Source: an uncultured Enterobacterales bacterium | GTDB taxonomy: Bacteria; Myxococcota_A; UBA796; UBA2385 | Assembly (NCBI GenBank): GCA_964464515.1 | Contig: CAYXGP010000201.1 | Span: 1-15,612, forward strand | DNA length: 15,612 bases | Reading direction: 5' to 3' | In this document: positions 2,699 through 10,168 of the stretch, in pieces | Layout: the number at the start of each line of letters is the position of its first letter | Numbering within the stretch: position 1 is the first letter of the stretch | Made by a program: the position numbers and the translations under genes | The notes under the pieces: model-generated | Seen by the model: only the letters and a program-made list of their open reading frames with translations | Databases searched by the model: none | Told to the model about the DNA's origin: nothing

Positions 2699-3868
2699 TC
2701 ATGGCGTCGGGGCGTCGCCGGGGGGCCAGGTGGAGGGTGCTGTCGTCATCGCCAACATGATCGCGTCGGCGAGGCCGCCAAACCCGAGGGCCTCCGTGGT
2801 CCGGTAGCGGCCTCGAATCGGAACACCGAACAGGGTCGCGGTGCGCATGATCTGGCGCCACGCGACGCGGTCGGAGTGCATTCGGGCGCCGCCGAGGGAG
2901 AACCCGGTCGCCGAGACGCCGACGCCGAGAATCACCGGGCCCGAGTCGATGTCTCCCGTCAGGTCTGTTCCGGGAGACTCCAGGATGCCACCGAACAGCA
3001 AGAAGTCACGGCGCTGCAGCGCTCCATACAGCTCTGCCGACAGCCGGGGGTGGCTGTACCGGAGCGCGTATGCCGCCAGGGCGGTGCCGCTCCCGCGGGG
3101 GAGATCGAGCCACGCGCCACTCGCGGGATCGAGACGCTGCACCAACAGGCCGCTCTCTGAGTCGATCGCGCCTCGTCGCAGGCGACGCCCCCAGTCGCGG
3201 AGCGTGGCTCCGTGGTCGGCGCCGGTGGACAGATCGAACAACCCGACGGCCGCAGCGCTCATCGCGATGTCGGGTGGATAGGTCTCTCCGGGGTAGGTCT
3301 GGTACTCCTCCAGCGGGGCCTTCGAGCGCTCGGCGAGCGCCTCGGCCAGGGATGCGTGGATGTCGTCGTATCGATGAGTGTTCGAGTCGGCTATGCGATA
3401 CAACCCCAGGGCCAGGCCGAGATAGCCCAGGTAGGCGTGGTGGGGCTGGTCTCCCGTGATGGCGAGACCATCCGTTCCCCATTCCTCTGTTCCAAACTTA
3501 CGCCCATCCGGAGAGATCATCCAGTCGAGGCAGGACTGCATCGGTGCGCGATATCGCGGGAGGAGTTCGGGGTGCTGAATCGACACCTGGGCGAGACCCG
3601 CGACCGCCATCTGGCAGGCCCCGAACCGCCACTCGGCGTCGAACAGATCCCCCCCCGGGCTCTCGACTGCGCCGTGTCCTCGCGCCCACTCCGCGACAGC
3701 GTCGGCGTGCCGAATCCAGGTCGGGGCGTGCCCCGCATACAGACGGTGAGAGCGCACCTCCGCTCCCAACGCGACCGTGGCGAGGACCAACGCGGCGAGT
3801 GTGGCGCTCCGCGCCACTCTCCGCCGGCTCTTTCGGGGCGTGTGCTCGTGGAGATCAGCGTTGCTCAT
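2699..3868 (-). CDS. Hypothetical exported protein (389 aa) with an N-terminal signal/anchor, possibly Tat-like (SRRRVA...LAALVLATVALGA)
   Basis: ATG at 3868 lies 9 nt after the methyltransferase stop. Basic n-region plus hydrophobic h-region. No motif I can assign to a known family. Confidence 0.5.
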   Translation of the reverse strand: MSNADLHEHTPRKSRRRVARSATLAALVLATVALGAEVRSHRLYAGHAPTWIRHADAVAEWARGHGAVESPGGDLFDAEWRFGACQMAVAGLAQVSIQHPELLPRYRAPMQSCLDWMISPDGRKFGTEEWGTDGLAITGDQPHHAYLGYLGLALGLYRIADSNTHRYDDIHASLAEALAERSKAPLEEYQTYPGETYPPDIAMSAAAVGLFDLSTGADHGATLRDWGRRLRRGAIDSESGLLVQRLDPASGAWLDLPRGSGTALAAYALRYSHPRLSAELYGALQRRDFLLFGGILESPGTDLTGDIDSGPVILGVGVSATGFSLGGARMHSDRVAWRQIMRTATLFGVPIRGRYRTTEALGFGGLADAIMLAMTTAPSTWPPGDAPTP

Positions 3869-3877
3869 ACGTCGCAG

Positions 3878-7727: not shown

Positions 7728-10168
7728 TCGGCGTCGGGCTCACCTGGTGAGGCCGTATCGTTGAGGGTGGGCATCAGCGTGGTGGGCACGAAGTCGAGGA
7801 ACCGCTGGGCGGTCTTGAGCAGCCCGCGTCCTTCCACGGCCGCCAGCTCGCCGAAGTTCTGGGACAGCGACGACAGCAGCTCCTGGTCTCCCAGTCGCGT
7901 GAGGGCCTCGACGAGCCCGGGCTGGATGGCGCCCGTCGTCTCGACCGCCGCCGCGACCTGCGCGCGGAGCAGCTGGAGCTGCAGCTCCTGCTGCGCCTTC
8001 CGCACCGAGAGTCGGGCCTCCTCGTTTGCCTGCCGGGTGGCGCGCTCCTGCTCGGCGACGGCGTAGTGGCGCTGCGAGGTCGCCAGGGCCAGCTCGGCCT
8101 TGAGCTGCGCCAGCGCGGCCTCGTGGTCGTGGGCGAGCAGACGCGCGGTGTGGATGTGCGCCGCGCGCTCGCTGGTGAGCTGCTGATCGAGCAGGGCCGT
8201 GGCGTGCTTGTCGCGGGCGGTGGCGCGGGTGATCTCCAGCAGGCGCTGCTCGCGGTCGAGCTCTGCGTTGCGCGTCGCCACCTCGATAGCCATCCGGACC
8301 GTCTCGAGCTGCGCCTGACTCAGCATCTGGCGGACCTCCTCGTCGGCGACAGAGAGGTCGAGGACGTCGACGTCGTAGACCCGCAGGTTGTTCTCGGGGA
8401 ACAGCAGCCCCCTGCGGCTGCCGGACTCCGGTTTGGCGCCGAGCAACAGATCGCGCACGATGACCGTGATGTCGGACTGCAGGGAGCGGATGGTCTCGCG
8501 CCGCAGCCGGGACTTCAGCATCGAGCGAGCGCGGTCGCACAGCAGCTTGATGTAGTTGTCGACGGCGAACCAGCGGCTGGGGTCGTCGCCCTCGAAGTTG
8601 ACCCGGTAGGTCAGCTTGAGGCGACCCCGCACGAGGTCTCCGGACAGGAACTCGATCTCGTCGGAGACCTTGTTGCCGCTCACCTGGAGGAAGACCGTGT
8701 GCAGGAGCCTGTCTTCGGACTTGGGCGTGCCCATGGAGAGCGACAGCGGCTGCAGGATCTCGTCGTACTCCAGCAGGATGGAGGTGGGGCCGCTGGCTAC
8801 GCGCCGCGATCCGGAGCGCTTGATGATCTCGACGGCGAAGCCCGACCAGATCTCCACCCGGACCGCCCCGGCGTAGCGGTTGGCGAGGGTCATCGACATG
8901 GGCTCCTCGAACGACGTGGGCCGATCGAAGCCCGCCGCCGGCGGCGGCTCGGGCGGCTCGGCCTCGCGCTCGGCGCGATCTCGCGAGCGGGACCGACCCC
9001 GGCGCGCGGGCGCCGCCTTGGACACCGCCTTGGGCACCGCCTTGGAGCGCAGGCCGCGGTTGTAGGCTAGCGCCTCTTCGTTGCCGGGGAACAGCAGCGC
9101 ACACTCGCGGTCGCTCAGCACCCGCCGGGTGAGCACCTCCTGGCGTGGATCGGGCAGGTAGACGCAGGGCCCCCGCCGCAGCGAGACCTCACCCGTGCGG
9201 CGGTTGAGCACATACCGCCCCTCTCCCTCGGGGATGACGACGGCTCGATGGATCTCCTTGCCGCCGTGGCTGATGAGCGCATGCTCCTGGCGCGGGAAGT
9301 AGATCACGCCCTCGCCGGTGATGAACAGCTCGGCGCCCTCGCGGTGCTCGACGCCGCCTGAGTCGGTGTAGGGCGCGATGGCCTTGATGTGCAGCCCCGA
9401 AAGATCGGACAGCTCGACCGCCTGGAAGCGGCGGGAGCCGTTCTTCTGGACGAACACCTGCCCCGGTTTGGGGAAGACCACCGCCTCGCCGCGGATGTAC
9501 CGCTTGCGGCCGTCTTCTCCGATGAGGATGCAGTACTCGAGGCGCCCCAGGGTGACCGCCCTGCGGGTGTGGTGGCCACCGCGGTCGGGGATGACCTCGA
9601 CGCCGGAGGGCGGCAGGTAGAACTTCACGTCGCTGCCGCGGATGACGAGCTTTTCGCCGATTTGAAAGGTGGGGGCGCCGCCCTCGAGCTCCACGCCCTC
9701 GGACAGCCCCAGCACCGCTCGCCAGGACCGCATGGCCTCCTGGGCATCGTAGACCTGTACGAGCAGGTACTCGTTCGAGCGCAGGCGGTGACCCTCGATG
9801 ATCTTCGCCATCTGGCCGGGCCACAGCGGGAAGCTGGCCGGTCCCGGGATGATGACCTTGCGCCCGACCCGCAGGGTGGTGAGCGAGTTGGCGATGCCGG
9901 GTGTGGGGTGCTTACCGTCACCGGCCGGGTTCTTGAGGACCACGTACCAGTTGGCCGGCGCCGTCGCGAACAGGCAGACGGCGTCCTGCAGGGGGATGGA
10001 CTCGAACCGCTTGGTCTTCTCGTTGAAGGCGACGATCTGGTCGGTCTGGGCCAGGCTGGTCTTGTTGGGACCGACGTAGGCGTTGATGTGGCCCTTGGTG
10101 GTGTCGAGAACGTAGGCGTACTCGTTGGGGGCGAGGATGAGCTCTCTCTGCTGATTTCGACGTTCCAT
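7724..10168 (-). CDS. mvp: Major vault protein (MVP) homologue, 814 aa, with N-terminal vault repeat domains, shoulder domain and a C-terminal cap-helix coiled-coil
   Basis: The translation aligns by eye with eukaryotic MVP. N-terminus: LILAPNEYAYVLDTTKGHINAYVGPNKTS versus human [29 protein letters not shown]. At least five to seven repeats of the GExx(L/V)(I/V)xGPxx(F/Y)xPxxxVEV type (GEKLVIRGSDVKFYLPPSGVEVI, GAELFITGEGVIYFPRQ, GEVSLRRGPCVYLPDP). Shoulder segment LLHTVFLQVSGNKVSDEIEFLSGDLVRGRLKLTYRVNFE versus human [35 protein letters not shown]. Post-shoulder segment LFPENNLRVYDVDVLDLSVADEEVRQMLSQAQLETVRMAIEVATRNAE versus human [44 protein letters not shown]. A long Ala/Glu/Gln/Arg-rich cap-helix-like coiled-coil follows. 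Strong SD AAGGAG 6 nt upstream of ATG 10168. Confidence 0.9.
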   Translation of the reverse strand: MERRNQQRELILAPNEYAYVLDTTKGHINAYVGPNKTSLAQTDQIVAFNEKTKRFESIPLQDAVCLFATAPANWYVVLKNPAGDGKHPTPGIANSLTTLRVGRKVIIPGPASFPLWPGQMAKIIEGHRLRSNEYLLVQVYDAQEAMRSWRAVLGLSEGVELEGGAPTFQIGEKLVIRGSDVKFYLPPSGVEVIPDRGGHHTRRAVTLGRLEYCILIGEDGRKRYIRGEAVVFPKPGQVFVQKNGSRRFQAVELSDLSGLHIKAIAPYTDSGGVEHREGAELFITGEGVIYFPRQEHALISHGGKEIHRAVVIPEGEGRYVLNRRTGEVSLRRGPCVYLPDPRQEVLTRRVLSDRECALLFPGNEEALAYNRGLRSKAVPKAVSKAAPARRGRSRSRDRAEREAEPPEPPPAAGFDRPTSFEEPMSMTLANRYAGAVRVEIWSGFAVEIIKRSGSRRVASGPTSILLEYDEILQPLSLSMGTPKSEDRLLHTVFLQVSGNKVSDEIEFLSGDLVRGRLKLTYRVNFEGDDPSRWFAVDNYIKLLCDRARSMLKSRLRRETIRSLQSDITVIVRDLLLGAKPESGSRRGLLFPENNLRVYDVDVLDLSVADEEVRQMLSQAQLETVRMAIEVATRNAELDREQRLLEITRATARDKHATALLDQQLTSERAAHIHTARLLAHDHEAALAQLKAELALATSQRHYAVAEQERATRQANEEARLSVRKAQQELQLQLLRAQVAAAVETTGAIQPGLVEALTRLGDQELLSSLSQNFGELAAVEGRGLLKTAQRFLDFVPTTLMPTLNDTASPGEPDAE

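What the first reader, a model, noticed from the sequence alone, without database searches (positions are those of the whole stretch)
2699..10168. Vault gene heads a translationally coupled operon with an exported quinoprotein-cytochrome c lipoprotein, a regulatory-domain methyltransferase and an exported unknown
The mvp TGA and the downstream lipoprotein ATG overlap as ATGA (7724-7727). The lipoprotein stop and methyltransferase start also overlap. The next gene follows after 9 nt. Co-transcription of a cytoplasmic shell-forming protein (no signal peptide) with exported redox and methyltransferase partners is unlike the eukaryotic vault partnership (TEP1, VPARP, vRNA). It may define a distinct bacterial vault-associated gene set. 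The functional link is inference only. The partners' lipobox and secretion signals argue against simple encapsulation as cargo.
Basis: partly seen in the sequence, partly recalled or inferred. Interest (0 to 1): 0.75.

Follow-up and report, generated by a model that had tools for sequence, protein, structure and literature searches.

The report
Bacterial vault gene with unrelated neighbours
A bacterial relative of the major vault protein is packed tightly against three downstream genes here, but no other vault-carrying bacterium examined has those neighbours, so this looks like ordinary gene crowding and not a vault partner set.

Summary
The gene layout is real. On the minus strand, an 814-aa MVP homologue (10168..7724) is followed by three genes. 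First is a lipoprotein that fuses a PQQ-type sugar dehydrogenase to a diheme cytochrome c (ATGA overlap). Next is a Rickettsia-PKMT-type protein-lysine methyltransferase (8-nt overlap or 7-nt gap, depending on the start). Last is an exported protein, now identified as a distant linalool dehydratase/isomerase relative (9-nt gap). Co-transcription in this organism is plausible.

In 80 other mvp loci from different species (±10 kb), tblastn and profile HMMs found none of the three partner families. In 83-84 loci of the methyltransferase family and 3 loci of the dehydrogenase-cytochrome family, none of the other genes appeared. The three closest MVP relatives look monocistronic, with a convergent downstream gene. 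Across loci the downstream neighbour is on the same strand about half the time. Four-base overlaps are routine on this contig.

The best reading is a lineage-specific juxtaposition of unrelated genes in a tightly packed Myxococcota-like genome. Bacterial MVP homologues have been described since 2013. Interest is low.

The parts
7724..10168 (-). mvp: 814-aa bacterial major vault protein homologue with no signal peptide, preceded by a strong SD (GGAAGGAG).
   Evidence: Pfam MVP_shoulder 2.7e-16 and Vault_3 above cut-off. phmmer to rat/human MVP 2.8e-15. The AlphaFold model's Foldseek top hits are full-length MVP at E 1e-33 over 750-818 columns. 4212 homologues, N-terminus conserved.
7724..7727 (-). 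ATGA stop/start overlap between mvp and the lipoprotein gene.
   Evidence: Read directly from the sequence. The start is validated by the conserved upstream motif and lipobox in homologues.
5514..7727 (-). 737-aa lipoprotein: signal plus lipobox (MRGIAALLLILPAC, Cys14 at 7688..7686), Ser/Thr-rich linker, PQQ-type sugar dehydrogenase beta-propeller, and SO2930-family diheme cytochrome c (CLQCH at 6041..6027, CAHCH at 5801..5787).
   Evidence: Pfam GSDH 3.3e-39. TIGR03806 2.1e-72, below the model's cut-off. PDB sugar dehydrogenases at 4.7e-23. Motif positions. Homologues are 700-800 aa lipoproteins named PQQ-dependent sugar dehydrogenase.
5514..5521 (-). Junction of the lipoprotein stop TAG with the first candidate methyltransferase start, GTG 5521. 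The alternative GTG 5506 lies 7 nt after the stop. The junction sits in a 15-nt tandem duplication.
3878..5521 (-). 547-aa (or 542-aa) cytoplasmic class I SAM methyltransferase of the Rickettsia PKMT1/PKMT2 type.
   Evidence: Pfam PF10119 2.6e-21, PKMT_2nd 5.1e-13 and Methyltransf_25. PDB 5dnk PKMT1 1.6e-57 and 5doo PKMT2 9.1e-50. No N-terminal signal.
2699..3868 (-). 389-aa exported or membrane-anchored protein, a distant relative of linalool dehydratase/isomerase ((alpha/alpha)6 barrel). Its N-terminus KSRRRVARSATLAALVLATVALGA looks like a Tat or Sec signal.
   Evidence: phmmer to LDI structures 3e-7. Family profile A3 to LDI 3.5e-16. 5 of 30 family members hit Pfam Ldi. More than 1000 clusters in the family. 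All homologues have a hydrophobic N-terminus.
2562..2698 (-). 137-nt spacer that ends the tight four-gene run. The next gene has its own strong SD (GGAGTGAGAG).
   Evidence: The fold is no more stable than shuffles, z = -0.97. No terminator-like site.
56..2561 (-). Further co-directional genes: a 235-aa membrane-anchored acidic protein (2561..1854), an ABC-2 permease (1857..955) and an ABC ATPase (958..56). The junctions are 4-nt overlaps.
10169..10406 (.). Divergent intergenic region upstream of mvp, the presumed promoter region. mvp is the first gene of its run.
   Evidence: Gene calls. No sigma-70 consensus match.

Best explanation
The window comes from an uncultured Myxococcota-like bacterium (about 70% GC). 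It carries a member of the already-described bacterial MVP family. In this lineage alone, mvp is followed without spacing by three genes of unrelated kinds:
- a periplasmic lipoprotein that would oxidise a sugar-like substrate through a PQQ beta-propeller and pass electrons to its own diheme cytochrome c;
- a cytoplasmic PKMT-type protein-lysine methyltransferase;
- an exported (alpha/alpha)6-barrel protein of the linalool dehydratase/isomerase superfamily.

The four are probably read from one transcript that starts upstream of mvp. Downstream starts would be served by termination-reinitiation, since they lack good ribosome-binding sites. That step is inferred from the sequence.

The adjacency is a product of genome compaction and local rearrangement, not of shared function. 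Bacterial mvp behaves as a stand-alone gene whose neighbours change from lineage to lineage. That step is shown by comparison with other loci.
For: Junction sequences and SD pattern. No terminator-like sites.

Synteny tests from mvp:
- 80 mvp loci from different species, up to 10 kb each side. tblastn found no hit for the lipoprotein, the methyltransferase, the LDI-like protein, the 235-aa protein or the ABC-2 permease.
- Profile HMMs gave zero hits, apart from one 34.8-bit generic methyltransferase match 7 kb away on the opposite strand in L058.
- All-against-all clustering of flanking ORFs found no neighbour family in more than about 20% of loci. The commonest were generic kinases and histidine kinases; the remainder were clade-restricted.

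Reverse tests:
- 83-84 methyltransferase loci (689 kb) contain no MVP, lipoprotein or LDI-like gene.
- Three lipoprotein-homologue loci have unrelated neighbours.

Orientation:
- The three closest MVP relatives (54-57% identity) have a divergent upstream gene and a convergent downstream gene.
- In crude gene models the downstream neighbour is on the same strand in 37 loci and on the opposite strand in 36. Only 4 loci, this one included, have a gap of 30 nt or less.
- Same-strand downstream neighbours elsewhere are heterogeneous.

4-nt overlaps recur at unrelated junctions on the same contig.
Against: No close relative of this lineage exists in the collections. The next MVP is 57% identical and the next methyltransferase 40% identical. 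Conservation over short evolutionary distances therefore could not be tested, and a young lineage-specific functional operon is not excluded.

Tight coupling (overlaps, weak internal SDs) is what a stoichiometrically co-expressed set would also look like.

The flanks were limited to 10 kb, and many metagenome contigs were shorter. Partners encoded elsewhere in the genome would be missed.

Transcription was not measured.
Confidence: 0.75

Rival explanations
1. A lineage-specific functional operon: in this organism MVP works with one or more of the downstream products. For example, the cytoplasmic PKMT-type enzyme could methylate lysines of the MVP shell, or of the lipoprotein before export.
For: 4-nt and 8-nt overlaps and weak internal SDs fit obligatory co-expression. 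PKMT relatives methylate a protein substrate: the PDB entries are named protein lysine methyltransferase 1 and 2. That the Rickettsia substrate is OmpB comes from my own knowledge of the literature.
Against: There is no recurrence in 80 mvp loci or in 83-84 methyltransferase loci. Methyltransferase homologues sit in quite different contexts. Two of the three partners are exported, while MVP has no signal.
Confidence: 0.1
2. The three downstream genes form their own periplasm-oriented module (redox enzyme, modifying methyltransferase, LDI-like enzyme). The module landed behind mvp and is simply read through from its promoter.
For: Two of the three are exported. They are packed as tightly with each other as with mvp.
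Against: No pair of the three recurs either. There is no lipoprotein or LDI-like homologue in 83-84 methyltransferase loci, and no methyltransferase or LDI-like gene beside three lipoprotein homologues. LDI-like contexts could not be sampled.
Confidence: 0.1
3. A shell-and-cargo locus, like encapsulin or microcompartment operons, in which the downstream enzymes are packaged inside an MVP shell.
For: A shell-forming protein is encoded first, followed by enzymes.
Against: The lipoprotein has a lipobox and needs periplasmic heme attachment. The LDI-like protein has a signal or anchor. There is no conserved partner across mvp loci.
Confidence: 0.02

Closest known systems
Bacterial major vault protein homologues of Myxococcota, Bacteroidota and others (Daly et al. 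2013, PMC3762200; Sokolskyi 2019, bioRxiv 10.1101/872010)
   Same: Same architecture as the described homologues: repeat array, SPFH-like shoulder and long cap helix. Length is about 800 aa. It is 44-57% identical to MAG and isolate proteins, including those of Plesiocystis pacifica and Nannocystis.
   Different: Here it is tightly followed by same-strand genes. In the three closest relatives it stands alone. The papers read here give no neighbourhood analysis.
Eukaryotic vault (MVP with TEP1, PARP4 and vault RNA)
   Same: The MVP fold matches along the whole length: Foldseek E 1e-33 to human, rat and rabbit MVP.
   Different: Only about 19-20% identity. No Pfam match to TROVE, PARP, vWA or TIR-like families among the 14 predicted window proteins scanned. 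RNA genes were not searched. The neighbours here are a periplasmic redox lipoprotein, a lysine methyltransferase and an LDI-like protein.
Rickettsia PKMT1/PKMT2 protein-lysine methyltransferases (PDB 5dnk, 5doo)
   Same: Same three-part architecture: class I SAM domain, PF10119 domain and C-terminal winged helix. E 1.6e-57.
   Different: The organism is free-living. The substrate is unknown. The family is widespread in Planctomycetota and other phyla at about 40% identity.
PQQ-dependent sugar dehydrogenase fused to an SO2930-family diheme cytochrome c (TIGR03806), common in Myxococcota
   Same: Same fusion, length and lipoprotein N-terminus. 45-52% identical to thousands of proteins.
   Different: Nothing notable apart from its position behind mvp.
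Linalool dehydratase/isomerase (PDB 5g1u, 6thm; Pfam PF18566)
   Same: The profile match covers most of the (alpha/alpha)6 barrel at E 3.5e-16. Like LDI, it is an exported protein.
   Different: The relation is distant: the protein itself does not reach the Pfam Ldi model. Catalytic residues were not checked, so no function is implied.

Membership tests
Major vault protein (MVP) | Shoulder domain (PF11978) | tested here: met
   60.1 bits against a cut-off of 25, residues 499-609.
Major vault protein (MVP) | N-terminal array of MVP repeat domains | tested here: met
   Vault_3 31.2 bits (cut-off 28.8). Vault 20.9 bits, below its cut-off of 27. The model aligns to the murine R1-R7 crystal structure at E 1.5e-11 and to full-length MVP over 750-818 columns.
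Major vault protein (MVP) | Long cap-helix coiled coil after the shoulder | tested here: met
   Predicted single helix at residues 610-745, pLDDT about 70-80. phmmer alignment of residues 445-754 to rat 467-791.
Major vault protein (MVP) | Assembly into a closed, many-subunit vault shell | not testable with these tools
   Needs expression and electron microscopy.
Eukaryotic-type vault particle (with partners) | TEP1/TROVE, PARP4 or vault RNA encoded or associated | tested here: not met
   No Pfam match to such families among the 14 predicted window proteins scanned. RNA genes were not searched.
   0 of 80 loci by tblastn. 0 of 80 by profile HMM for the lipoprotein and the LDI-like protein. One weak generic methyltransferase hit, 7 kb away on the opposite strand.
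Operon with translational coupling | Same strand, overlapping or nearly abutting stop/start codons, no intervening terminator | tested here: met
   ATGA overlap; 8-nt overlap or 7-nt gap; 9-nt gap. No terminator-like site.
Operon with translational coupling | A single transcript spans the junctions | not testable with these tools
   Needs RNA-seq or RT-PCR.
PKMT-type protein-lysine methyltransferase | Class I SAM domain plus PF10119 plus C-terminal PKMT winged helix | tested here: met
PKMT-type protein-lysine methyltransferase | Methylates lysines of a protein substrate | not testable with these tools
   Biochemistry is required.
Exported c-type cytochrome lipoprotein | Signal peptide with lipobox cysteine, and CXXCH heme motifs | tested here: met
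   MRGIAALLLILPAC; CLQCH at residue 563 and CAHCH at residue 643. 77 of 120 homologues match a strict lipobox pattern within the first 45 residues.
Anti-phage defence systems (PADLOC) | A match to a system-specific protein model | tested here: not met
   The only hit is the generic SAM domain of the methyltransferase against mad2, covering residues 42-173.

The most novel reading that the evidence does not exclude
In this uncultured lineage, mvp has been newly recruited into a working unit with a PKMT-type lysine methyltransferase and envelope proteins. For example, the MVP shell, or an SPFH-like membrane-associated cage, could be lysine-methylated and act at the cell envelope. That would give the first handle on what a bacterial vault protein does.
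Probability: 0.06. Interest if true: 0.6.

Novelty: new member of a known kind. Interest (0 to 1): 0.15.

Why it matters
The function of vaults is a long-standing open question, and a conserved bacterial partner set would have made it testable. The comparison shows there is no such set at this locus. It also shows that bacterial mvp has no widely conserved neighbour at all within 10 kb. That negative result is useful: clues to bacterial MVP function will have to come from expression, phylogenetic profiles or biochemistry, not from gene neighbourhood.

Tried and rejected
- **Conserved neighbours of mvp.** I clustered all flanking ORFs of 81 loci. Only clade-restricted families came up: rph/rdgB in three related MAGs, lepA in Vulcanimicrobiota, and a Cys-rich secreted protein with an upstream transporter in five Polyangiales/Nannocystaceae loci. 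Generic kinases were the only other recurring group.
- **Defence-island reading.** PADLOC gave only a generic SAM-domain hit.
- **Promoter and terminator scans.** They found nothing. This is uninformative for a 70% GC organism.
- **137-nt spacer after the fourth gene.** Its fold is no more stable than shuffled sequence.
- **GC3 test of the lipoprotein's N-terminal extension.** Inconclusive, because the Ser/Thr/Pro-rich linker skews composition. Homology settled the start codon instead.
- **Literature.** No paper in the library analyses the neighbourhood of bacterial mvp.
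Full report
**Origin and layout**

The window is about 70% GC. It is identical to part of a 47.5-kb metagenome contig (JGI 3300007512, Ga0105016_1001184) that was also assembled from three other samples.

On the minus strand there is a run of co-directional ORFs:
- 10168..7724 (814 aa)
- 7727..5514 (737 aa)
- 5521..3878 (547 aa)
- 3868..2699 (389 aa)
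- a 137-nt gap
- 2561..1854 (235 aa)
- an ABC-2 permease and an ABC ATPase

Upstream of the 814-aa gene lies a 238-nt divergent intergenic region. Beyond it is a plus-strand cluster of small ORFs.

**Checking the observation**

- gaATGAggg at 7727..7724.
- ..TGT GAG TAG, with GTG 5521 starting 8 nt before the end of the stop codon.
- TGA, then 9 nt, then ATG 3868.

Automated gene calls on the public contigs disagree with the first junction. They start the second gene at GTG V70, which gives 668 aa and a 203-nt gap.

Homologues resolve this.
- Of 120 relatives (44-52% identical apart from the contig's own protein, mostly 700-800 aa), 77 match a strict lipobox pattern within the first 45 residues.
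- They share a motif, (L/Y)D.RP.N..C.AP.RP. In the window protein it lies at residues 52-64, upstream of V70.
- A protein with two CXXCH heme motifs (residues 563 and 643) must be exported. Only the ATG 7727 start supplies the signal MRGIAALLLILPAC.

The ATGA overlap therefore stands.

The methyltransferase start is ambiguous between two GTGs that sit in a 15-nt tandem duplication. The result is either an 8-nt overlap or a 7-nt gap.

Only mvp (GGAAGGAG) and the 235-aa gene after the 137-nt gap (GGAGTGAGAG) have strong Shine-Dalgarno sequences. The three internal genes have weak ones or none. That fits coupling within a four-gene unit. No terminator-like or sigma-70-like sites were found. The promoter result means little at this GC content.

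Tight packing is the norm on this contig. The public gene models show 4-nt overlaps at three other junctions: kinase/unknown, 235-aa gene/permease, and permease/ATPase. Several other junctions have gaps of 10 nt or less.

**What the genes are**

*Gene 1 is an MVP homologue.*
- Pfam MVP_shoulder 2.7e-16 and Vault_3 above cut-off.
- phmmer to rat/human MVP at 2.8e-15 over residues 445-754.
- An AlphaFold model built on 25 homologues has mean pLDDT 68. It shows beta-rich repeats, a shoulder and a 136-residue helix.
- The best Foldseek matches of that model are full-length human, rabbit and rat MVP. E is 1e-33 to 1e-27 over 750-818 columns at about 19-20% identity, followed by SPFH proteins.
- There are 4212 database homologues. 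The closest outside this contig is 57% identical, and most are from Myxococcota-type MAGs.
- Bacterial MVP homologues in Myxococcales, Bacteroidetes and other groups were described in 2013 and 2019 (PMC3762200; bioRxiv 10.1101/872010).

*Gene 2 is a lipoprotein.* It fuses a PQQ-type glucose/sorbosone dehydrogenase beta-propeller (Pfam GSDH 3.3e-39; PDB 3a9g 4.7e-23) to an SO2930-family diheme cytochrome c (TIGR03806 2.1e-72, below that model's cut-off). This fusion is very common in Myxococcota.

*Gene 3 is a PKMT-type methyltransferase.* It has the full architecture of Rickettsia PKMT1/PKMT2 protein-lysine methyltransferases (PDB 5dnk 1.6e-57, plus PF10119 and the PKMT winged helix). It has no signal peptide.

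- The single sequence matches LDI structures at 3e-7.
- A profile of 30 family members matches at 3.5e-16 over most of the barrel.
- 5 of the 30 members reach the Pfam Ldi model.
- The family has more than 1000 clusters at 50% identity.
- All sampled members have a charged and then hydrophobic N-terminus.

**The synteny test**

A scan of one genome per species returned 237 mvp-encoding stretches. The best 80 were kept with up to 10 kb on each side. They span Myxococcota, Bradymonadia, Desulfobacterales, Riflebacteria, Vulcanimicrobiota, Anaerolineae, Saprospiraceae and others.

- tblastn with the lipoprotein, the methyltransferase, the LDI-like protein, the 235-aa protein and the ABC-2 permease found no hit outside the window's own contigs.
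- Profile HMMs built from family alignments gave zero hits for the lipoprotein and LDI-like families. They gave a single 34.8-bit generic methyltransferase hit, 7 kb away on the opposite strand in L058.
- Clustering all flanking ORFs found no neighbour family shared widely. The largest non-overlapping groups were generic Ser/Thr kinases (18 loci) and histidine kinases (17 loci) at scattered positions. The rest occurred in six loci or fewer, mostly within single clades.
- In crude gene models the downstream neighbour is on the same strand in 37 loci and on the opposite strand in 36. Only 4 loci, this one included, have a gap of 30 nt or less.
- The same-strand downstream genes elsewhere are heterogeneous: Cys-rich secreted repeat proteins, a hybrid histidine kinase, an alcohol dehydrogenase, a permease, a dipeptidase and a succinate dehydrogenase cytochrome b.
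- In the three closest MVP relatives, the public gene calls show mvp between a divergent upstream gene and a convergent downstream gene. That is apparently a monocistronic arrangement.

**Reverse tests**

- A metagenome scan with a methyltransferase alignment gave 80 loci, and four more came from context look-ups (689 kb in all). None encodes an MVP, the lipoprotein or the LDI-like protein, by tblastn or by HMM.
- Methyltransferase contexts that were inspected show unrelated neighbours.
- Three loci of 49-51% identical lipoprotein homologues also have unrelated neighbours.
- No pair among the four genes recurs.

**Interpretation**

The operon-like packing is real, and co-transcription is plausible but unmeasured. 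The proposal that these genes define a bacterial vault-associated set is not supported. Bacterial mvp behaves as a stand-alone gene with a fluid neighbourhood, and the arrangement here is unique to one lineage.

The main caveat is that this lineage has no close relative in the collections. A young, lineage-specific functional link cannot be excluded; the most conceivable is between the two cytoplasmic products, MVP and the PKMT-type enzyme. I give all functional-link readings together roughly 0.2. The shell-and-cargo reading is disfavoured because two of the three partners are exported.

**Verdict**

All four genes are new members of known families. Interest is low.

Noticed in passing
window 10407-12648 (+): A cluster of small plus-strand ORFs runs divergently from mvp, in a GC dip (0.63 against about 0.70): 82 aa, 177 aa, 78 aa, 134 aa and 282 aa. 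The 78-aa ORF (11161-11397) hits Pfam PAAR_motif at 1.1e-7, above the cut-off. The 177-aa and 78-aa ORFs overlap by 62 nt, so one of these gene models is doubtful. None of the small ORFs has a homologue in the 80 other mvp loci.
   Followed up: partly
L085, L086, L087, L091, L149, L158 (methyltransferase loci): Homologues of the PKMT-type methyltransferase sit next to PAAR, Phage_base_V (VgrG-like) or RHS genes in about five independent loci out of 83. The window also has a PAAR gene about 5.6 kb from its methyltransferase. The association is weak and may be chance.
   Followed up: partly
window 7521-7727 (-): Public gene calls for this contig start the dehydrogenase-cytochrome gene at GTG V70. 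That cuts off its lipoprotein signal and a conserved N-terminal motif. The database protein (668 aa) is therefore truncated by 69 residues.
   Followed up: yes
window 5492-5523 and 3881-3910: Both ends of the methyltransferase gene carry a 15-nt tandem duplication. The 5' one encodes VSSGP twice; the 3' one gives GLLVDGPLVD. The 5' one creates the two alternative GTG starts.
   Followed up: no
window 15400-15455: A near-perfect 17-nt tandem repeat (GGGGGGACGCTGTGATT, 3.3 copies, 97% matches) lies near the end of the window.
   Followed up: no
window 13978-14100 (+): The C-terminal half of the Ser/Thr kinase gene contains a 15-nt (or 30/45-nt) repeat array encoding Ser/Ala/Gly-rich low-complexity sequence.
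   Followed up: no
L030, L036, L040, L043, L045 (mvp loci): In five Polyangiales/Nannocystaceae-type loci, mvp is flanked by the same two genes. Upstream, on the opposite strand, is a membrane transporter of about 650 aa. Downstream, on the same strand, is a Cys-rich secreted protein of about 570 aa. This is clade-level synteny and probably inherited vertically.
   Followed up: partly
window 8882-9037 (-), MVP residues 378-429: An Arg/Ser/Pro-rich segment of MVP is predicted to be disordered (pLDDT about 30). It lies between the repeat array and the last repeat plus shoulder, and is poorly conserved among bacterial homologues.
   Followed up: no
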